From: Schizochytrium sp. TIO01
Taxonomy: Eukaryota; Protista; Bigyra: Labyrinthulomycetes
Reading direction: 5' to 3'
NCBI GenBank assembly: GCA_004764695.1
Contig: SMSO01000004.1
Span: forward strand, 62,001 to 126,000
DNA length: 64,000 bases
The translations under genes and the position numbers were made by a program. This document shows, in pieces, positions 40,423 to 64,000 of the stretch. The notes under the pieces are model-generated. The model was not told the origin of the DNA, ran no database searches, and saw nothing but the letters and a program-made list of their open reading frames with translations. Position 1 is the stretch's first letter. The number at the start of each line of letters is the position of its first letter.

Positions 40423-42037
40423 AACAAAGATAACGCTGGTGTCCACTTAAGCCTCCGATCGCTCCGCTGACCTCGGCCTCTAAATTTGATGCTTGATTTG
40501 CTTGTTTTCGATCCTTTTCTTGATTTGATTTCCTTTCCTTTGCTTTGCTCTATTCTCCGGCGCGAAGAAGGGAGAAGTCAAGATTGAATTTTTGAGTTTT
40601 AGTGTATCGAGCAAATGATTCGTTCTCTATTTCTTTCGTTCTTTGCGTTTGTTTTCTTTTAGAAGAAGAAGAAGAAGAAGAAGGCATTTTCAAGGGTAAT
40701 CAACGGCGAGCTTTCGAGCCACGCCATGAACGAAATTCGCGCGGAAGCAGGACTCTTCTCTCCCTCATACTCCGCTTCGTCCCACCAGCCCAGCCAGTCA
40801 GGTTTGCGAAACGGATCGAGACCTTGGAAGGCTTGATAGCGCTTGCTGGCGAGGAGCTCGAAAACACAGGCTATTTTTGGCTAGCCACGCTCCCTGACCC
40901 TGTGTCGCTTTGCGTATTATGCAAATTCGCACACACACATAATTAATACACGTCTATTCTGTGGACGGACACACGCCCTTCGCTTGAATCCCGGGCTGCC
41001 TCGCGCTGCGCTGCTCCCGATCGTTTTCTCGCATCCGAGTATCTCTCGCCGCGCGACGACTCCGTGCTCAGGAGTTGGCTGGACGTGCCCAGACTCAACG
41101 GCCAGCTCCAGCAGCTCGTGCAAGCTGCCTTACTCGACAACAATGGCACCAGCCAGGCTCCCAAGAACGAGGTCAGTAACTGACTCCCAAGAAGCACGTC
41201 AATACCTTGGACCTGGACCAAATATGTTTGAGCGTGAGCGTGAGCGTGAGCGTGGGCTTGCTGGCTTACTGGCTTGCTTGCTTGCTTGCTCGATGGTCTC
41301 AAGAGTGAAGAGATTCCGAACAAAAGGCAGCATTTCGAGGACATTTGCGCTCAGATCGATTCCGTGGCGCTGGCACGCGTGTACCCACCCACGACTCTTC
41401 CCTCCCAAGAGCTAGTTAGCTGCAGTGCAGTGCAGCGCAGTAGTGCAGTGCAGCTTTCTCCAACTCCAAATTGCGATCAGGCGTGAGATTCAACCTCAGA
41501 TCCTCAGCCCGTCTCCGCCCGCAAGCAAGCAATGCACATATGCCTCAGTCGGTCCTCCAGCTAGGCTGGCCTTCTCCGCGGCCTCGACGCCCTCGGGGTC
41601 GCCGCTCTTGCACGCCGTAAGGACCGCACAGCGAGAGCGAGCTGGTTGGCCAGCCAGAGTGGTGGTCCCAGCCTGCTGCTGCTGCTGCTGCTGCTGCTGG
41701 CTGGCGGCAGCGGCGCGAGGCGACCGCGCTTTGGAAGCTGGCTGGCGGCTGAGACCGGCAGAAGCGGAGCGGCGGCCAGGCAGGCAGCCAGCGGCAGAGA
41801 TCGCTCTGCGGTGTGCTCGCAGGTAGGTCCTTCCTTCGCGATCCATCTCGCCTGCCTCGGCTGGTTCCTCCTCGCCATCGCGCTTCGTTCCCTTCTGCCT
41901 CATGACATGATGATGATTCAGGTATGTATGCATGTGCCTTCGAAGAGAGAGTGCATTGTCTGTGCTTGGTTCTCCTTCGCCTTGTTTTCTTTCCCCTGTT
42001 TTGGTAGCAAGGCGCCTAATAGGTAGGTATCTCGTCA

Positions 42038-55400: not shown

Positions 55401-56774
55401 GACGCTGCCAGCACAAAACGTGGCGTGTAGTATCAGCAACGTCGGCATCCTCTCCTCTCCCCAAGCATGCTGAGCGATCCAAACCCTCAAGCCTCAGCAC
55501 CCGGTCTCCATCACGACCATCTATCAACACAGAGTCCACATGCCAAATTTGCTGCCTAAGCTACTACCAAACGAAGGCAAGAACCGCTCGTCAAAGAGGA
55601 CCATAAGGGGTCACACGAGTTTTCCATAAGCCGCACTTTGTGCCAGCCGCGAGAACTTTCAATCTCTCACGTGTATCCAATATCTGACCTCCTCAATGAA
55701 ACTCTGAGCGATGGAACTCCGCTTCATATCTAGCCCACCCCTTGCGGACGCCGATACTTCGCGTCGCGTCGGAACTGCAGAGCAGTGCCTGCCTGGCCAG
55801 GTACGTCAGCGTATGCCTTTGGTTGTTTGTTATTTGTGTTCTCCGACGCCATGAGAGTCGTGAAGATGTCTTTCCTTTTTCTTTAGAAGCAGAATCCAAA
55901 ACGAAAGAACCAATAGATAGGCGACTTTCCTTCAGCCCCCTCGATGACCGCATCGAGGCAGCCGCGTTCGAAAGCGCATGTTGGCGAGGCTTGGACTGAT
56001 CGCAGCCTCCTAAACCCACGCTCGCTTGAATGAATAAACGTCCATTCTGAAGTCTCACGAATTATCATGGAGCCCCATCTTAAGAACGTTCCGTTCTTCT
56101 TCGCGCTTCAGTTCTCATCCATATTTTTCTGTTTTGCAAAAATCGTTGCATCGTCATTGGCCATGAAAGGCAAACAAACCGATACGCCACGGACTCCGTG
56201 GCATACGTTCTCGATGATACGCTGGACCAGCTTGGACCGGTCTTCTCCGGAGCTCGAGGGAGAGCTCAGCGAGGAGGTGGCTCCTCACGGAAAGCGGGTT
56301 CTGGTTTTGTGCCCGGATTTGTAACAACTGAGATGGAGAAAACAAAAACCGGAAAAATCGTCCCATCTGTTCGCTATGTGAGTCTTAGTCGCTGTGAAAG
56401 AGGACGTAAAATGCTCATCGATTGATTGTTATTATTTCTTTATTTCGATCAACGTTGTTTGTTTGTTTGTTTGTACTTACTTACTTATTGGAAAAGGCGG
56501 AACTAAGTTGGAAAACGAAGATCTTCAGAACTGATTGAGCATCGATCGTGAATTCGAAGGATCCATCGCGACGGCAGCAAAACCCGAATCGGACAAGGCT
56601 CTAGAGGTGAGGAGAGGCGAGGTGAGGTAAGGCAGTACCGCGTAGAGAGAGAGAGCGAAGGAAGGCTTTTTTATAGGTCCGCTGGGACATTGGCACTGGC
56701 ATCGGCAGCGAGCAGGGTTGGGTTCGTGAAGAAAACTTGGAGTTCTTTGGGTTAACTTGACAAAGGGAACCAAG

Positions 56775-58184
56775 ATGAAGAGCTTTGTTCGCAACAACGC
56801 GCAGAACCTTCTGCGCGCACAGAAACCATCATCGTTTGCAGCGCGCTGGAATCCGGCGGGAGTAGAGAGCGCTCGCAATTTTGGGTGGAACGCACAGGAA
56901 GAGCGCGAAGCTCAGGAAGATCTCCAACAGCGTATCGAGTCTGAAGATCCATCGGCGCAGCGTACAAGCCTTAACCTCAAGGTTCGCCACCAGACCGGTG
57001 CACTTGAGAATGTGCTTCGCCTGTTTTGGAAGTACGATCTCAACCTCACCCGCATTGAGTCACGGCCTTCTATGTTCGACAGGAACCGCTTCGAGATTGA
57101 CATTGACTTCGAAGGTCCCGCAGATCAGCCTGGAGTGAAATCTATCATGTCCAAGCTCGAATCCTCCTGCGAAGATGTACGTTTGAGCGACCCTGTGATT
57201 GTGCCTTGGTTCCCAATGCACATCAGCGACCTTGACTCCTTTTCACAGAAAACCCTGGACGCAGGAGCTGAACTCGAGTCTGATCACCCAGGTTTCTCTG
57301 ATAAAGTGTACCGCCAGCGTCGTGAAATGATTGTCGCCAACGCTGGAAGCTACCGCTATGGTCAGGAAATCCCTCGCGTGGAGTACAGCGAAGACGAAAT
57401 CAAGACCTGGGGTGCAGTCTACCGCCGTCTTAAAGAAAACTTTCCCAAGCATGCTTGCCAGGAATATATTGACGTTATTGCCAAGCTTGAGAAGGAGGTT
57501 GGCTTTGGCGAAGACAACATTCCACAACAGCAGGACGTCTCGGAGTTCCTCAAGCGCTCAACTGGATTCCAGCTGCGCCCCGTCGCTGGTCTTCTGTCTG
57601 CTCGTGACTTTCTGAATGCATTAGCCTTCAAGACCTTTTTCTCGACGCAATACATTCGTCACCACTCCATGCCGCTCTACACCCCGGAGCCCGATGTTGT
57701 GCACGAGCTCATGGGCCATGCTCCTTTGCTTGCCAACCCTGACTTTGCTGAGCTTAGCCAAACCTATGGTATCGCTTCCCTTGGAGCAAGCGACCGTGAC
57801 ATTGAGCGCCTTGCGACCTGCTACTGGTTTACTATCGAGTTCGGCCTTTACCGCAGCGGTGAAGAGGTCAAGGCGTACGGTGCTGGTCTTTTGTCCTCCT
57901 TTGGTGAGCTTGAGTATTCATGTGGCCCAAAAGAAGCCGGGGAAGCCAAGCCTGAGCTTCTTCCCTGGGACCCTGCGGTCGCAGCTGAGACCGAATACCC
58001 CATCACTACGTACCAGCCCAAGTACTTTGTTGCAGAGTCTCTCCAGGATGCCACTGACAAACTCAAGGACTTTGGAGAGCGCCAGATTGTACGCCCCTTC
58101 CGTGTTTCCTACCTCCCCGAAGAGCAGCGAGTGCAGTGTGACCGTAATGTTGCTCGCGTGCGCTACAACCCGGATGCTGAGTAA
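56775..58184 (+). CDS. PAH: Phenylalanine-4-hydroxylase (biopterin-dependent aromatic amino acid hydroxylase with ACT domain)
   Basis: ACT motifs GALENVL and NLTRIESRPS. Catalytic motifs VPWFP, DHPGFSD, RPVAGLLSARDFL, STQYIRH, YTPEPDVVHELMGH (Fe ligands), YWFTIEFG, AYGAGLLSSFGEL, YQPKYFV. Confidence 0.95.
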   Translation: MKSFVRNNAQNLLRAQKPSSFAARWNPAGVESARNFGWNAQEEREAQEDLQQRIESEDPSAQRTSLNLKVRHQTGALENVLRLFWKYDLNLTRIESRPSMFDRNRFEIDIDFEGPADQPGVKSIMSKLESSCEDVRLSDPVIVPWFPMHISDLDSFSQKTLDAGAELESDHPGFSDKVYRQRREMIVANAGSYRYGQEIPRVEYSEDEIKTWGAVYRRLKENFPKHACQEYIDVIAKLEKEVGFGEDNIPQQQDVSEFLKRSTGFQLRPVAGLLSARDFLNALAFKTFFSTQYIRHHSMPLYTPEPDVVHELMGHAPLLANPDFAELSQTYGIASLGASDRDIERLATCYWFTIEFGLYRSGEEVKAYGAGLLSSFGELEYSCGPKEAGEAKPELLPWDPAVAAETEYPITTYQPKYFVAESLQDATDKLKDFGERQIVRPFRVSYLPEEQRVQCDRNVARVRYNPDAE

Positions 58185-59515
58185 TTTAACCCATTTGTAG
58201 CAGTTTATTATGCATATCTGTTGTACGGTTACCTTCATCCCCTGGAGTACTCCCTTCCTCATGTTAGCAAGAGTATGTCTAGTTTGACCTTCATTTATCC
58301 TGTTTTAACCATTCTTTATATTTTTCTCTCCCAAGCTTACAATACATCCTTCCATTCGTTTGACAGGATTTAATGTACAGAAAAAGTATGCGTCATCGAA
58401 TTATTGAGCGCCTCTATTGTGGTGTAAGAGACATTCCGTTTTTTTATTGGACTTGGCGGCTTTCCCAAAACTTTGCTCGCCCTTCTCTGAAGCGAAGTCT
58501 TGGAGTTTGTAATACCGGGGGGGGGGGAGAGAGAGAGCTGCCTGGGAATTTGAGAGTCATGAATTCGTCCAGGAAGATGTTTGATATTTTCCATTCAACC
58601 CTTCACGGCCGGATACAAATGACAAGAAGTTTTAACTATACGGCGAGCTGCCTAAAACTTCAAAAGGTTGCTTATGGAGGACTCCAGGCACAACCGAAGT
58701 GTCAAAAGTATCTTTGTATAACAAGAATTAATTCATATGATTTGCAAAATTTGTTTCTTTCGGTAATGGTTTCTTAGTGGCCCAAATCAGGAGAGCTCAC
58801 GAGATTAAAAGATTCGTCAGAGCTGAGACGAACTCAAATTGATGTGTTTTTTTATTTCTTTTTCTTTTTTTTCAGATACTGAAGAACGGTTCTCCCCACC
58901 TTGTCTGTAAAACCCCTGCGAGTCTCTTACACAGCATTCGTCCGCTATAAAGCCAACGTAATTCTTGTCAGGGTGGGATAGTACAGTCTAGCCAGCTTTT
59001 GTTTTAATTTTGTTTTGCAATAAGTAAGCATCAGGGTAATGACTCAGGAAGTAGTTGCTGGTTGGTCACATCATAACCGTCTTGGTTATTTTCGCTTGGT
59101 TTCAAGGTCGTTTCCTAACATAGGGCAGTCGCACTCAAATAAAAACTCAAGCAAATAGTAATGACCTGGAGAACGAAGCACATCCATCAAAATGGTTCGA
59201 AATACCCCAAAAAACGTGCACGAAAGAACCGACCAACAACACCACCCCGGAAGCCTAGCAACCCGAACTCTATCCCGATATCAACCATCATCCTCAATGC
59301 CCTAGATCTGCACGATTATTATTCATCTCAATCCCAAAGCACATTTATTGTCTCAAGATGTCCCAAATATGATCGGCATCAATAGGAACTTCGTATAATT
59401 TGATCTCCTCAAACGTGCCCTAAGTAAACTCAATTCGAATTTACAGTAGAGCTTGCATCTCGATAAAGATCAGTTCAGAAGGGCTTAGAGATTTCTGGTA
59501 TAAATTTGAAGAGGT

Positions 59516-59836
59516 TTATGCACTGGCACGAGTCTTGGCTGCGACGGCCTTGACCTCCTTCTCAATCTCAAGAGATCTGTTGGTGTCGAGTCCGATCTGC
59601 TTCTGGATGCGCTCCATGTTGGAGCGGACGCTCATGAGCGCCTCGTCGCGGGACTTCTCCACGAGCACATCGCCTACAAGGCGGTAGCACTGGCGCTCTC
59701 CGTTGAGGCTGTCAAGAACCTCGGCGGCCACGATGTGCTCGCGCTCCTCGGCCTCCAGCTGCGCCACGCGATTCCGGAGCATTTGCGCCTCGTTGGCAAG
59801 CTTCTCAAACTCTGCGCGAACTGCGTTGGGGTCCAT
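59516..59836 (-). CDS. PFDN2: Prefoldin subunit 2 (beta-type prefoldin)
   Basis: 106 aa. Coiled coil - LEAEEREH..V...L..ERQCYRLVGDVLVEK - coiled coil. Confidence 0.85.
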   Translation of the reverse strand: MDPNAVRAEFEKLANEAQMLRNRVAQLEAEEREHIVAAEVLDSLNGERQCYRLVGDVLVEKSRDEALMSVRSNMERIQKQIGLDTNRSLEIEKEVKAVAAKTRASA

Positions 59837-61068
59837 CTTCTCAGGTTCTTCTCAAATGTCGTAACCTCAAACTTTCCCAGGTCAACTCGATCTTCGTCGC
59901 GGTTTTGGAGCCCAAATCCTCGCAACTGAAGCGTTGTTGATTTCTCGTTTATCCTGTATTTTGTACTCATTGATTCATAGGCACAGATCAAGGAACAAAA
60001 CCACCTCTATTCTTCATTTACTCTCCTATAGCCTACTTTATGGCCATTCTATACTCCACTTTCCGCTCCTTTAGACCCACTTACGAGTGTTTCCACAAAG
60101 AGAACTATTCCGCCACAAGTGAAAAGCTGTTGAGAGGGGGTCCCACGGTTTACACTATATAGACCCTAGCGACGCTTTAGACGTTGCGGGCTTCGGAGAC
60201 CTTCTTTGATGGTGTGACTTTTTGCCTAAATTGTCTGACGTGCGCATTCTTAGCGCTCTCTATGAAACAACCTCTAACAATATATGAGGGGGGTGTCTTA
60301 AACGTAAACATCTGTTTAAATTTTGTTTGAACCAGATGGTAGTAGTAATATCTACTTTACTATAAGTGTCAAAAGAACAGGGTGATGTACTCTGTAACTT
60401 AAGGCGAGCGTTGACGGAAGCATACGGTATAATAAACTCTGTAGTACACCCCTTTCAAAAAAAAATATGTTTCGTTCTTTGAACATAATATGTACAACTT
60501 ACTCATCTAGGGCATTGAAGAAGTCTATTGAGGAGTATATAAATACTTAATGCTATTTTCTGCAAAACATAGTGGTGTTTAAGTCATATAGTACACTATT
60601 CTACGTTTAGTCGACACGTTTAAGCTTTATAAAAGAACAGTTATTGCAGCTCCAAACTTCAGCTTCATAGACAAGTACACATGGATAGTCACGGATCATA
60701 GGGCATCGTATACAATTTATAAAGATTAGTATATGTTTTACACCGTCACTTTGAACCATCATAAATGAGATAATTAATTAATACAAGATATACATTATTA
60801 TGGATGATTAAGATTCGATAAACTGAACTTGTAGCTAGAGTTAAAACCAAAATATTGAGTCGAATTAAAGCACCAAAAGAAACTTTTTACCGCGGCTGTT
60901 CCACTGGTGTTCTTGAACAGCTATACTATTAGTTATGGACAATGTTCTACTTATACATACTGTTCCTCTTTAGCGCTTCAATATTACTTACGAACTTTGT
61001 TCTACTCGTGCATGCTCTTCCTATTGAACTTTATACTACTATTTATTTACTTTTAAAATTAAGACGTG

Positions 61069-61303
61069 TTATTGATACTGTTCTTCTCAAACTATATGTT
61101 ATTACTTTACAGATTAATCTTATTGCTAATTTCAAACTTTAAGCTTTACCTAATGCTATTCTCAGTGTTTTTCATTGGGGGTTTATTGATACTGTTCTTC
61201 TCAAACTTTATGCTTAACCTTATCTTAGCGTTTTTCTTAGTGTTATTAATACTGTTCTTCATTGAGTGTTTATTGATATTGTTCTTCTCAAACTTTATGC
61301 TCA
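61069..61303. repeat. Irregularly spaced ~30-bp direct repeats in an AT-rich tract
   Basis: ttattgataYtgttcttctcaaactWtatg at 61069, 61183 and 61270, with a partial copy at 61243. Confidence 0.85.
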
Positions 61304-61445
61304 CGGACTGGGAGGATCTAGAACGACAATAACATCTTCTGCTGTGATGATCTCCTTGTCAGGGGTCAAGGTAAATTTTCAGTAATAATAATCAATTGCA
61401 AAAACAAAAATAAAACTTATTAATCAAATAATAATCATTTGCCTC

Positions 61446-63476
61446 TCATTTGCTCGGGAAGCGCCGGAGCGAGTCCCGAATTCGCTTACGCTTCGCGACT
61501 CTCCGGAGAAGCTTGTCTAAATATTCCACTTCCTCCCTTTTCCTCTCAGGTGTTGCGTCATCACCAGAGCATCCACGCCCAAAGTCGACCAGATGCGCCC
61601 TCTTCGCGAGGGGATCGATAGCAATATTTCGCCAAGCAATATCTCCGTGCAAGACGTTAGCCGCGTGCACTTGCTGAAGAGACTCGCGGATAGCGACAGG
61701 AAACCAATCATAATTAGCAATTGCCAGGTCTCGCGATGCAGTCTTCCCAGAATCTGACGTAGCAATGATCTCACGCTCACAAAAAGTGCCGCCGTAAATC
61801 AAAAACGGAACGTAGAGACCCTGTAGCTGTCGAAGAGGTCCATTGTACAGTTCCACCTCCTTCAAAAAGTTCTGCTTCTCAAACTCGCAAAATTCAAGGG
61901 GCCTATCCTTATTCGTTGGCGCGAAAGTTTTCACATAAATACCCCACGCGTCAGGGTGGTTACCAAAACCTGGAATTCGACATACTCCGTTGCCCACGTT
62001 CTTATATTCCTTGGACCACGGGAGAGGCATACTAAAGTTCTTTTCTTCGAGGGGAAGATGATCCATGATTGCAGAGCGTAGAGATTCAAGATCCTCCGCT
62101 TCCCTGGCGCCGTTGCGTGGAAGCGTTGATCGCATGCGGGCGAAGAATTCGACAGCATTGTCACCAAGGATAAGAAGCATCGTGCTAGGATTTGCTCCAA
62201 ATATTCTATCTCTTCCAAACTTTTCTGCGCAATAAGCAACGAATGCCTTTTCAAGTTGCTCATTCTCATCCGGGTAAAAGTTGCGAGAGTCAGGGTCCTT
62301 GAAGACCTTGTAGATTAATGAGGCATATGCTTTTAAAGTACCAGTGTAAGAATCCGTCCCAGTTTCCAAGGCGGAAAATGGCTGGGTTACCCATATATTA
62401 CCCTTGTTGTCGCGCTTCACAAAATAACTGAATTCGAACGAGGAGAGAACCCCATATTTCAACCCATTGAAAACCATGTAGGTGAAGAGTTGCTTCAAAG
62501 ACTCCCGAAAGCTTTCCCGAAGTAGGGCCGTACTTGGCTTAGCCATTTGTTTGCGGGAATCTGCTTGGGTTGTATCCGCGCCTACGATTTGGTGAGGCAT
62601 CTTGCCCTCTATGACGAAAAGAGGCTCCCCGGGCTCAGTGCGTATTTCTGAGTCCGCCTCAACGATAATATCATAAAGCGAGCCTATTCCATTGTTTCGT
62701 TCAAGCCTACAGGAGATGGGTGGATACTCTGCGATGACAGGATGCAGTAACATGAGAGGGAATATGACAACTCGTTGGAGTGCTTGTTTTGCTTCCGGTT
62801 CGTTGGATTTGATGTTTAACGAGACTTGCGTGGTTGAAAAGATGTCCGTACTAATGCGTTGCCTACTCATGACAGACTGTCCCAGACTTTCAACGACTTC
62901 TTCATCAAAGTCGGCCAATGACCACTCCGAAAAAGTTATATATTCTAAGGCCCAAACGGAACCTCTCCGGGCCGTGGAACCAGGTGCTCTCCCCTTAAAT
63001 ATTGACTCCAGACGCCGCAGCTTAAGAGCCTCAGAGAGTCTTATTTGTCCTTGCCGGAGTTGCTCCTCGGCTTGCCGGGCTCGCTCGCGCACTTGCCGGA
63101 GTTGCTCCTCGGCTTGCCGGGCTCGCTCGCGCACTTGCCGGAGTTGCTCCTCGGCTTGCCGGGCTTGCTCCTCGGCTTGCCGGGCTTGCTCCTCGGCTTG
63201 CCGGGCTTGCTCCTCGGCTTGCCGGGCTTGCTCCTCGGCTTGCCGGGCTTGCTCCTCGGCTTGCCGGAGTCGCTCGCGCGCCGCTAAACGAACATCCAGC
63301 GCTTTTCGCGTTATTCTTTTAAGGGCCTTTTTTCGTGAATCCAGATAGTCTAGGACACCGTCATCCAAATCATCAAAGATTTTATTATATTCGATGCGCC
63401 CAAGACCCGAGTCTGTCATCTGGCATAGCGCGTCAACAGTCAAAACATGATCATCGTCGGGGTCGGATTCGGACAT
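61446..63476 (-). CDS. Coiled-coil + PD-(D/E)xK restriction-endonuclease-like domain + protein kinase fusion (Crinkler/CR-effector-like architecture)
   Basis: First ATG at 63476 (MSESD). Nuclease motifs SNE..., YDII, FVIEGK, QLFTYM...LKYGVLSSFEFSYFVKR. Kinase motifs IYVK, FLKEVELY, LQGLYVP, HGDIAWRNI, LVDFG. Confidence 0.85.
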   Translation of the reverse strand: MSESDPDDDHVLTVDALCQMTDSGLGRIEYNKIFDDLDDGVLDYLDSRKKALKRITRKALDVRLAARERLRQAEEQARQAEEQARQAEEQARQAEEQARQAEEQARQAEEQLRQVRERARQAEEQLRQVRERARQAEEQLRQGQIRLSEALKLRRLESIFKGRAPGSTARRGSVWALEYITFSEWSLADFDEEVVESLGQSVMSRQRISTDIFSTTQVSLNIKSNEPEAKQALQRVVIFPLMLLHPVIAEYPPISCRLERNNGIGSLYDIIVEADSEIRTEPGEPLFVIEGKMPHQIVGADTTQADSRKQMAKPSTALLRESFRESLKQLFTYMVFNGLKYGVLSSFEFSYFVKRDNKGNIWVTQPFSALETGTDSYTGTLKAYASLIYKVFKDPDSRNFYPDENEQLEKAFVAYCAEKFGRDRIFGANPSTMLLILGDNAVEFFARMRSTLPRNGAREAEDLESLRSAIMDHLPLEEKNFSMPLPWSKEYKNVGNGVCRIPGFGNHPDAWGIYVKTFAPTNKDRPLEFCEFEKQNFLKEVELYNGPLRQLQGLYVPFLIYGGTFCEREIIATSDSGKTASRDLAIANYDWFPVAIRESLQQVHAANVLHGDIAWRNIAIDPLAKRAHLVDFGRGCSGDDATPERKREEVEYLDKLLRRVAKRKRIRDSLRRFPSK
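63051..63266 (-). repeat. Coding 21-bp tandem repeat (10 heptads: RQAEEQA x5, then RQAEEQL/RQVRERA alternation)
   Basis: cttgccgggcttgctcctcgg units are identical at the DNA level. Confidence 0.97.
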
Positions 63477-63573
63477 GGTTGCTCGGACGAGGCAAGGAGA
63501 GGCCACGGCTTACGCCTTCGCTTGCTTGCTTGTTTGCTTGTTTGCTTGCTTACACACGTCCAAGAGGGAATAA

Positions 63574-63649
63574 AGGGAATCAATCGTTTGGGAATACAGG
63601 GAATCAATCGTTTGGGAATACAGGGAATCAATCGTTTGGGAATACAGGG
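63574..63649. repeat. 24-bp perfect tandem repeat x3 in a divergent intergenic region
   Basis: agggaatcaatcgtttgggaatac at 63574, 63598 and 63622. Confidence 0.95.
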
Positions 63650-63736
63650 CGTACATTTTTGTCACCAGGGATTGACGAGAACAAACAAACAATTGGGTAT
63701 TTTATTTTGTTTGAAGGAACAAAACCAAAACCAAAA

Positions 63737-64000
63737 ATGGAGACAATCGGCGGTTATAAGATACTCACGCAGCGGCAGCGGGAGGAACAACGTGCTGCTG
63801 GTGCACACGTCATAGCACCTTTCATCGTCGATGAGGGAGTGTATGTATGATGAGTTTGTTATCTTGAAAGACCTCACGCACGAAGAGAGGAAAGGAAAAC
63901 TGGAAGAAGTGATAGCACAGAACGAAGGAGGTCTCTATCACTTGTCTGAAATGTTTTTCTGTGGCATTCTTTGGAATGACTTCGCGCTCTCTTCGCTAGT
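63737..64000 (+). pseudogene. 5' part of an unknown gene interrupted by a 4-bp duplication; runs off the window
   Basis: AAAATGG start, METIGGYKIL...DEGVY, then GTATGTAT (63841-63848) gives TGA TGA. Removing one GTAT restores DEFVILKDLTHEERKGKLEEVIAQNEGGLYHLSEMFFCGILWNDFALSSL, open to the window end. Confidence 0.55.

What the first reader, a model, noticed from the sequence alone, without database searches (positions are those of the whole stretch)
61446..63476. Nuclease-kinase fusion with a coiled-coil stalk: candidate Crinkler-type toxin/defence effector
Seen: an intronless 676-aa ORF with a short N-terminal header, 10 heptads, a domain with E..D..ExK plus QxxxY and YGVLS (about 62300-62800), and a compact kinase with Lys, alphaC Glu, HGD..N and DFG intact (about 61470-62010). 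Established: REase + kinase pairing is a typical C-terminal architecture of Crinkler/RHS-type (CR) eukaryotic effectors, which are linked to mobile elements. Inference: there is no signal peptide or LxLFLAK header, so it may act inside the cell (antiviral or abortive defence, or a selfish toxin) in a probably non-pathogenic marine protist, with the coiled coil driving oligomeric activation.
Basis: partly seen in the sequence, partly recalled or inferred. Interest (0 to 1): 0.8.

Follow-up and report, generated by a model that had tools for sequence, protein, structure and literature searches.

The report
Spok-like nuclease-kinase gene in a protist
This gene, likely from a marine protist, encodes a long repeat helix, a predicted DNA-cutting domain and a kinase in one protein, the layout of fungal Spok spore-killer genes, and it likely works as a poison carrying its own antidote, an arrangement our searches found tested only in fungal genes.

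Summary
The 676-aa ORF (61446-63476, minus strand) has a 21-bp heptad repeat, a domain that models as a PD-(D/E)xK restriction-nuclease fold (BpuSI Z 12.3; V. vulnificus HsdR Z 8.6) with intact D269/E290/K292 and QxxxY, and a short Rio/Bud32/Kdo-type kinase with catalytic residues intact. It belongs to the known eukaryotic REase+kinase class (Crinkler-type C-termini) but has no Crinkler header; only 7 of 102 relatives scanned carry one. Among relatives, nuclease-dead/kinase-intact proteins recur (9 of 88 scored) while nuclease-intact/kinase-dead ones are absent or single (0 of 88; 1 of 91 and 1 of 101 under other scorings), as expected if the kinase is the antidote. Against selfish spread: the gene looks single-copy and near-invariant in five DNA-like runs, lacks Spok's cysteine cluster, and in CRN8 the kinase is not an antidote. 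Heptad number differs between alleles, so the long stalk is probably dispensable. Verdict: new member of a known class, likely a self-neutralising nuclease toxin (about 45%); its role is untested.

The parts
61446..63476 (-). Single-frame ORF, 676 aa (P0001): header, repeat helix, REase domain, helical linker, kinase
63363..63476 (-). N-terminal header, residues 1-38, acidic, poorly modelled; no signal peptide, no Crinkler Ubl match
   Evidence: pLDDT about 45-52
63054..63362 (-). Long helix, residues 39-141; holds a basic patch RKKALKR (48-54) and the heptad repeat
63050..63267 (-). 21-bp tandem repeat, 10.4 copies; allele P0002 lacks 56 residues (8 heptads); run X12 shows a 21-letter gap in the piece that ends in the repeat; the 87%-like copy in X19 skips 168 bases
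62292..62843 (-). PD-(D/E)xK restriction-nuclease-fold domain, residues 212-395, with E226, D269, E290-x-K292, Q329xxxY333, YGVLS
   Evidence: BpuSI 3s1s Z 12.3, rmsd 3.3, 150 aligned; DrdV Z 9.6; HsdR 3h1t Z 8.6
62037..62291 (-). Helical linker, residues 396-480; no Spok-type cysteine cluster
61464..62036 (-). Compact eukaryotic-like kinase, residues 481-671: K516, E540, HGD612, N617, DFG631; one helix after DFG
   Evidence: Rio2 Z 12.7-12.8, PRPK Z 12.4, PINK1 Z 12.9; weak Kdo and Bud32 profile hits below cut-off
61476..61505 (-). C-terminal basic cluster RRVAKRKRIR, candidate nuclear localisation signal (inferred); RKR-I/V-R also ends P0144 and P0009
60271..61315 (.). Downstream non-coding repeat present at many places in the genome (boundaries approximate); link to the gene not shown
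63717..64000 (.). Upstream multi-copy repeat, running to the window end; link to the gene not shown

Best explanation
The gene encodes a nuclease-fold domain and a kinase with all catalytic residues intact, and it likely works as a one-protein toxin-antidote in which the nuclease would damage DNA and the kinase would hold it in check, as in fungal Spok proteins. Shown here: the domain order, both folds (as predicted models), intact catalytic motifs, no secretion signal, and variable repeat length. Inferred: (1) nuclear entry through the basic clusters; (2) DNA damage by the REase domain, by analogy with Spok1; (3) restraint by the kinase, through self-phosphorylation or phosphorylation of the target, so that cells that keep making the protein are safe; (4) killing when protection lapses, for example in a daughter cell that received protein but not the gene, or when host expression is shut off. 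The repeat helix would be an optional oligomerisation or specificity arm. In this lineage the gene now looks fixed, so any drive would be silent between carriers.
For: Architecture: SPOK3 has a variable-length N-terminal coiled-coil repeat, a PD-(D/E)xK domain with QxxxY whose best HHpred hit was V. vulnificus HsdR, and a kinase that may be closer to eukaryotic-like kinases (PMC6660238). P0001 has the same order, a variable repeat, a structural match to that same HsdR (3h1t, Z 8.6, rmsd 2.8, 117 aligned) and a Rio/Bud32/Kdo-type kinase. Atlas look-alikes (one source): SPOK2_N clusters at 0.95 for residues 150-676; for the nuclease part alone SPOK2_N was the only named family, 4 of 30 hits at 0.93. 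Function in Spok: nuclease Lys needed for killing, kinase Asp for resistance; kinase-dead Spok1 damages DNA in yeast and E. coli (PMC9972908). Loss pattern among relatives, three scorings of overlapping sets (both intact / nuclease-dead only / both dead / kinase-dead only): 75/9/4/0 of 88 scored, with 33 gapped and 18 one-domain rows of 139 dropped, Fisher p 3e-4; 72/11/7/1 of 91, with 18 of 109 dropped; 83/12/5/1 of 101, with 20 unaligned and 18 one-domain rows dropped. Control pair Y333/H604 is symmetric, 7 versus 6 of 118. Six of 7 proteins lacking the kinase catalytic Asp also lack an intact ExK; the seventh (P0026) is a record that starts just before the ExK strand. The dead forms are scattered on a 106-row quick tree, e.g. 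P0014 beside intact P0012 (support 100). The 517-residue nuclease+kinase model has pTM 0.83, consistent with the two domains packing together.
Against: No direct alignment with a SPOK sequence was possible, and the Spok cysteine-cluster pattern is in 0 of 148 proteins held, P0001 included. CRN8 of Phytophthora, a kinase-bearing Crinkler described as REase+kinase, kills plant cells with its kinase intact, and loss of its phosphorylated serines removes killing (PMC3426532), so 'kinase = antidote' is not universal. The relatives were found mostly by kinase similarity, which biases against kinase-dead rows; among 18 scored rows found by the nuclease half the split is only 15/2/1/0. Correcting the minimal test for two scored residues against one gives p 0.039. 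Relatives are not independent, and joint decay of dead genes also links the two losses. The gene looks single-copy and differs by only 0.5-3.8 letters per kb in five runs, against 2.2-6.2 for neighbours in the three runs compared. That is unlike the mobile, patchy Spoks. Four of six Fusarium Spok homologues had no effect in yeast (PMC12693581), so intact motifs do not guarantee toxicity.
Confidence: 0.45

Rival explanations
1. Inducible defence nuclease: the kinase (with the helix as an oligomer arm) switches the nuclease on during virus infection or stress, destroying invading DNA or killing the infected cell.
For: Thraustochytrids carry persistent large DNA viruses (listings; passages). A fixed single-copy gene with intact active sites fits a maintained host function. 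In CRN8, phosphorylated serines are needed for killing. The review of CR proteins says the kinase would regulate REase activity and that some header types may target invasive DNA inside the cell (PMC5289972). The top viral fold hits are two Pandoravirus DUF5898 proteins aligned over most of the model (E 8e-6 and 6e-5, TMq 0.41 and 0.34), placing similar modules in virus-host conflict.
Against: If the kinase were only an activator, kinase-dead/nuclease-intact forms would be harmless and should be about as common as the reverse; they are 0-1 against 9-12. No sensor domain is evident. PADLOC hits are only generic kinase and coiled-coil matches. No induction data were available.
Confidence: 0.2
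2. Domesticated or weakened descendant: a non-toxic nuclear enzyme (DNA or RNA processing) or a fading relic of a toxin family, kept without a conflict role.
For: Single-copy appearance and low variation among strains; 20 of 24 listed runs from 12 studies hold it (holders are selected as such); no adjacent transposase; four of six intact-looking Fusarium Spoks were inert in yeast.
Against: No close conserved counterpart: the next clusters are 42%, 37% and 46% (fragment) identical, and three Hondaea fermentalgiana homologues are 29-32% identical and in three different catalytic states, which suggests birth and death (no housekeeping control was measured). All catalytic residues are intact.
Confidence: 0.22
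3. Exported effector in the CRN8 sense: delivered into prey, competitors or hosts, where the nuclease kills.
For: Homologous over both domains to Crinkler-headed proteins of soil fungi (P0020, E 5.6e-12; Pfam PF20147 in P0020, P0021, P0028). CR headers include unrelated helical types. A basic C-terminal cluster fits nuclear targeting.
Against: No Crinkler match, LxLFLAK motif or hydrophobic signal. Only 7 of 102 relatives have the header, and none of the six proteins in its own tree group does. There is no family expansion of close copies.
Confidence: 0.08

Closest known systems
Spok spore-killer / toxin-antidote proteins of Podospora and Fusarium (PMC6660238, PMC9972908, PMC12693581; Pfam SPOK2_N PF27653)
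   Same: Order of parts: variable-length N-terminal heptad repeat, PD-(D/E)xK domain with QxxxY resembling V. vulnificus HsdR, linker, eukaryotic-like kinase; no secretion signal; catalytic D-to-K spacing 23 residues here, 21 in SPOK3.
   Different: Non-fungal host (inferred thraustochytrid); no cysteine cluster; no separate folded domain between repeat and nuclease like SPOK domain 1 (a short helix and strand only in the model); looks single-copy and fixed rather than mobile and patchy; killing and resistance untested; direct sequence homology to SPOK not tested.
CR (Crinkler/RHS-type) REase+kinase proteins of Zhang et al. 2016 (paper not held; known here from PMC5289972, PMC12693581, PMC11342252)
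   Same: REase domain followed by a kinase, said to make up about one-sixth of CR C-termini and to occur in free-living eukaryotes; sequence homology to Crinkler-headed Mortierellaceae proteins over both domains.
   Different: No Ubl/LxLFLAK header; a repeat helix stands in its place; which REase and kinase clade it belongs to could not be assigned.
Phytophthora infestans CRN8 (PMC3426532)
   Same: Kinase-bearing CR protein with an annotated REase domain, nuclear, dimeric, autophosphorylating.
   Different: CRN8 is a translocated RD-kinase effector that kills with the kinase intact; P0001 has HGD (non-RD), no header and no known target organism.
Type I/IIG restriction enzyme nuclease domains (BpuSI, DrdV, HsdR of EcoR124I and V. 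vulnificus)
   Same: Fold of residues 212-395 and the D..ExK..QxxxY motif set.
   Different: No methyltransferase, helicase or specificity domain; fused to a kinase in a eukaryote.

Membership tests
PD-(D/E)xK nuclease superfamily | Restriction-endonuclease core fold | tested here: met
   Model residues 212-395 match BpuSI Z 12.3, DrdV Z 9.6, HsdR 3h1t Z 8.6, EcoR124I HsdR Z 7.2; BpuSI also
PD-(D/E)xK nuclease superfamily | Catalytic D ... E-x-K conserved | tested here: met
   D269, E290, K292 present; kept in 90, 88, 89 of 109 rows
PD-(D/E)xK nuclease superfamily | Nuclease activity | not testable with these tools
   Needs an assay
CR REase+kinase proteins | REase domain directly followed by a kinase domain | tested here: met
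CR REase+kinase proteins | Homology to Crinkler-headed REase+kinase proteins over both domains | tested here: met
   P0020 found by phmmer with two stretches, E 5.6e-12; Crinkler PF20147 above cut-off in P0020, P0021, P0028
CR REase+kinase proteins | Assignment to a named CR-REase / CR-kinase clade | not testable with these tools
   Zhang 2016 and its supplements not held
Crinkler (CRN) translocated effectors, narrow sense | Ubl-like header with LxLFLAK (PF20147) | tested here: not met
   No match at E <= 1 or E <= 0.001; residues 39-141 model as one helix
Crinkler (CRN) translocated effectors, narrow sense | Delivery into a host cell | not testable with these tools
   No hydrophobic signal; no localisation data
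Spok family | N-terminal variable-length coiled-coil repeat | tested here: met
   Heptad repeat with length variants; dimer formation itself not tested
Spok family | PD-(D/E)xK domain with QxxxY, then an ELK-type kinase | tested here: met
   against PMC6660238 section 17
Spok family | Cysteine cluster C-x3-C-x13-C-x5-H before the kinase | tested here: not met
   A relaxed pattern matched 0 of 148 proteins including P0001
Spok family | SPOK domain 1 (SPOK2_N, PF27653) and direct sequence homology to SPOK proteins | tested here: inconclusive
   No tool returned a named SPOK sequence; only Atlas feature similarity to SPOK2_N-bearing clusters; no such family appeared in the Pfam scans, whose copy may predate it
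Spok family | Mobile or patchy locus, several close copies | tested here: inconclusive
   Single-copy appearance in X1, X2, X3, X7, X12; an 87%-like second copy in X19 only; runs without the gene cannot be seen by this search
Spok family | Killing by the nuclease and resistance by the kinase | not testable with these tools
   Only indirect support from the loss pattern

The most novel reading that the evidence does not exclude
A Spok-type single-gene killer exists outside fungi. In this stramenopile the nuclease kills sister cells or zoospores that inherit the protein without the gene while the kinase protects carriers. The lopsided loss of catalytic residues across fungal and protist relatives means that kinase-as-antidote is the general, ancestral logic of the whole eukaryotic REase+kinase class, with secreted Crinklers such as CRN8 the derived exception.
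Probability: 0.25. Interest if true: 0.8.

Novelty: new member of a known kind. Interest (0 to 1): 0.48.

Why it matters
How Spok kinases confer resistance is still unresolved (PMC12693581), and every functional test of the kill/protect split that our searches returned used fungal genes. A distant, intronless, cysteine-cluster-free relative from a culturable protist allows a simple test of whether the split is a general property of REase+kinase proteins, using published yeast assays. If it is, many anonymous 'protein kinase domain' genes in fungi and protists would be candidate toxin-antidote loci, and nuclease-dead/kinase-intact copies would be candidate suppressors. If not, this is one more member of a family described in 2016.

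Tried and rejected
No genome is held for this window, so paralogue count and synteny in its own assembly could not be read; only near copies (80-85% or more) could be seen through laid runs. Viral contigs: 7 pattern matches, none a relative. Metagenome contigs: 7 loci of 561 candidates, all short kinase-only matches, not used. Word-based protein searches gave 3, 5 and 2 hits; one search was meant to build a nuclease-selected set free of kinase bias and failed. No RNA holder listed as such. Runs X9, X15 and X19 cover the gene and the neighbouring prefoldin-like gene but not most of the DNA between, which is only a weak hint of transcription. The homodimer prediction for residues 1-175 never ran because the queue was full, so oligomerisation is open. 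Sequence search of the nuclease part against the PDB: 0 hits at E <= 10. Foldseek on the N-terminal model: none at E <= 0.001, best rows mitoribosomal proteins and BpuSI. The flanking repeats show no long reading frame, no Rfam match in 56000-64000 and no terminal inverted repeats; they do not form the long tandem units described for subtelomeric LORE-TEARS. A selective sweep was considered after X1 showed 1 difference in 1882 bases, but X2 is no lower than its neighbours (3.2 versus 2.2 per kb): rejected. Horizontal origin from composition: GC3 0.50 lies within the range of eight neighbouring genes, 0.49-0.78: no signal. A weak tblastn hit at 41302-41490 (E 0.08) was treated as noise. PADLOC and NCBIfam gave only generic kinase and coiled-coil matches, NCBIfam all below cut-off. 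The careful tree did not finish; the quick tree was used. Paper searches (listings read) returned nothing on such a protein in thraustochytrids, but Zhang 2016 and its supplements were not available and may list them.
Full report
Observation. The ORF at 61446-63476 on the minus strand is real and 676 aa long. A 21-bp tandem repeat of 10.4 copies at 63050-63267 encodes heptads at residues 70-146 whose a and d positions are mostly Ala. Pfam gives only weak kinase and coiled-coil matches. There is no hydrophobic signal, and there are two basic clusters, at 48-54 and 658-667.

Setting. The window's genes are eukaryotic; I read the two nearest as a phenylalanine hydroxylase and a prefoldin subunit from recalled motifs, not from a call. 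The closest named homologues are from Hondaea fermentalgiana, and most DNA-like runs that hold the gene have 63-66 million letters of contigs. I infer a thraustochytrid, probably Aurantiochytrium; this is inference. No genome was held.

Folds. A model of residues 160-676 from 109 sequences has mean pLDDT 84 and pTM 0.83. A model of residues 1-405 from 77 sequences shows a poorly modelled 38-residue header, one helix from 39 to 141, and a compact domain. That domain matches restriction-enzyme nuclease domains: BpuSI Z 12.3 (rmsd 3.3, 150 aligned), DrdV Z 9.6, V. vulnificus HsdR Z 8.6, EcoR124I HsdR Z 7.2; two mitoribosomal proteins score Z 10.2 and 9.4, and their restriction-like fold is recalled. 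The kinase matches PINK1, Rio2, Rio1 and PRPK/Bud32 at Z 12-13 (tied) and has a single helix after DFG; weak profile hits are to Kdo kinase and Bud32.

Family. phmmer over 1.84 billion representatives found 139 proteins at E <= 0.001, 17 at 1e-10 and 5 at 1e-30. After the 99% allele P0002 come proteins at 42%, 37%, 46% (fragment) and 33%, clusters that include protist transcriptome records, then three Hondaea proteins at 29-32%. More distant ones include Mortierellaceae and Glomeromycota proteins. Of 102 sequences scanned (chosen from about 148 held; fragments, near-duplicates and some others left out to fit the limit), 7 carry the Crinkler header. Of 40 with at least 120 residues before the nuclease, 9 score as coiled-coil-like on a crude score, against 5 of 200 shuffles. 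So this is the known REase+kinase class, said to be about one-sixth of CR C-termini and present in free-living eukaryotes (PMC5289972, passages), and a helical N-terminus without a header is not unusual in it. Zhang et al. 2016 itself could not be read. The two best viral fold hits are Pandoravirus DUF5898 proteins aligned over most of the model.

The Spok parallel. The Atlas placed SPOK2_N-bearing clusters at 0.95. For the nuclease part alone, SPOK2_N was the only named family, in 4 of 30 hits; the two calls are one source. SPOK3 is described with a variable N-terminal coiled-coil repeat, a PD-(D/E)xK domain with QxxxY most like V. vulnificus HsdR, a cysteine cluster and a possibly ELK-type kinase (PMC6660238, section 17 read whole; passages). 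Its nuclease Lys is needed for killing and its kinase Asp for resistance. Kinase-dead Spok1 damages DNA in E. coli and yeast (PMC9972908, passages). Spoks also act in vegetative cells and stabilise dispensable chromosomes (10.64898/2026.10.04.756499, passages), and PMC12693581 (passages and section 17) links the architecture to Zhang 2016. P0001 shares the order of parts and the repeat variation: P0002 lacks 56 residues and has five substitutions, X12 has a 21-letter gap, and an 87%-like copy in X19 skips 168 bases. An assembly collapse of the repeat in P0002 is not excluded. The cysteine cluster is missing (0 of 148) and no SPOK sequence was available for direct alignment, so I file it as working like Spok, not as a Spok.

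Test of 'kinase = antidote'. If the kinase restrains the nuclease, genes can lose the nuclease alone or both, but not the kinase alone. Counts (both intact / nuclease-dead only / both dead / kinase-dead only): 72/11/7/1 of 91 scored from the 109-row MAFFT alignment; 75/9/4/0 of 88 after profile realignment, with 33 gapped and 18 one-domain rows of 139 dropped (Fisher p 3e-4); 83/12/5/1 of 101 with a minimal definition. The query is counted among the intact. A control pair of conserved columns was symmetric, 7 versus 6 of 118. The one exception, P0026, begins just before the ExK strand and lacks the first nuclease helix. On a quick tree of 106 rows the dead forms fall in separate places, and Hondaea alone has intact, nuclease-dead and doubly dead copies. 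Caveats are real: hits were mostly found by the kinase; only 18 scored rows came by the nuclease half (15/2/1/0); the minimal test corrected for residue number gives p 0.039; relatives are not independent; and a search meant to remove the bias failed. CRN8 is a counter-example, killing with its kinase intact (PMC3426532, passages). I weigh this as moderate support.

Population picture. Twenty of 24 listed runs, from 12 studies, hold at least 0.80 of the gene's sampled words; they are listed because they hold it, so absences cannot be seen. In X1, X2, X3, X7 and X12 the gene is covered by one or two contig pieces at depth close to neighbouring single pieces (49 vs 56; 375 vs 310-335; 19 vs 16-21; 31 vs 27; 7 vs 8), consistent with a single copy (the tool warns that depth is not a copy number). 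Differences are 0.5-3.8 per kb, against 2.2-6.2 for neighbours in the three runs compared. The gene is flanked on both sides by non-coding multi-copy repeats, but no element ends or transposase were found. The second copy in X19 is absent from DNA-like run X3 with the same organism label, so it may be a strain-specific paralogue or carry-over from a related species.

Mechanism and odds. Best reading (0.45): a self-restrained nuclear nuclease toxin, now fixed. Thraustochytrids cleave multinucleate cells into zoospores (recalled), which would give the shared cytoplasm a Spok-like killer needs; a sexual cycle is reported for Labyrinthula (10.1101/2023.06.15.545109, passages) but not shown for this organism. 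Rivals: a domesticated or inert descendant (0.22), a kinase-activated antiviral nuclease (0.20; persistent mirusviruses are reported in this group, PMC12606086, listing only), and an exported effector (0.08). The first and the antiviral readings can merge if infection removes kinase protection. Oligomerisation by the helix is untested because the complex job never ran.

Verdict. Real feature; new member of a known class; the Spok-like reading and the loss asymmetry are what add interest. Searches showed no paper on such a protein in thraustochytrids, but the unseen Zhang 2016 supplements may include them. PMC11342252 (passages) and PMC9758233 (one passage) were consulted for context only.

Noticed in passing
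window 60271-61315: Non-coding AT-rich repeat present at many genomic places (depth up to tens of times the neighbours in five DNA-like runs; many contigs share a difference at 60271, a likely boundary), with three internal 25-bp direct repeats (0 expected by chance). No long reading frame, Rfam match or terminal inverted repeat.
   Followed up: partly
window 63566-63649: 24-bp tandem repeat, 3.5 copies, 97% alike, 90 bases upstream of the start codon.
   Followed up: no
window 63717-64000: Second multi-copy repeat upstream of the gene; other copies differ at about 30 of 200 letters and continue into unrelated DNA.
   Followed up: partly
window 61645-62343 and 63303-63513 (run X19): A second copy about 87% alike with the repeat 168 bases shorter; not seen in DNA-like run X3 with the same organism label.
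   Followed up: partly
proteins P0011, P0012, P0014 (Hondaea fermentalgiana): Three divergent homologues in one species in three catalytic states: nuclease-dead, intact, and doubly dead.
   Followed up: yes
fold search of model md92607b21e52: Pandoravirus DUF5898 proteins A0A2U7UEV6 and A0A811BR09 align over most of the nuclease+kinase model, suggesting that DUF5898 proteins share the two-domain layout.
   Followed up: no
protein P0016: A 1577-aa model labelled Durusdinium trenchii joins a Dam-like domain, a TM2 domain and this nuclease+kinase module; it may be a fused gene model or a contaminant.
   Followed up: no
protein P0033: Holds a REase and kinase followed by a second REase domain.
   Followed up: no
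window 62384-62424: A 41-base stretch around the YGVLS-adjacent strand is matched, with 5 differences, by an unrelated high-depth contig in X9 and X15; probably chance.
   Followed up: no
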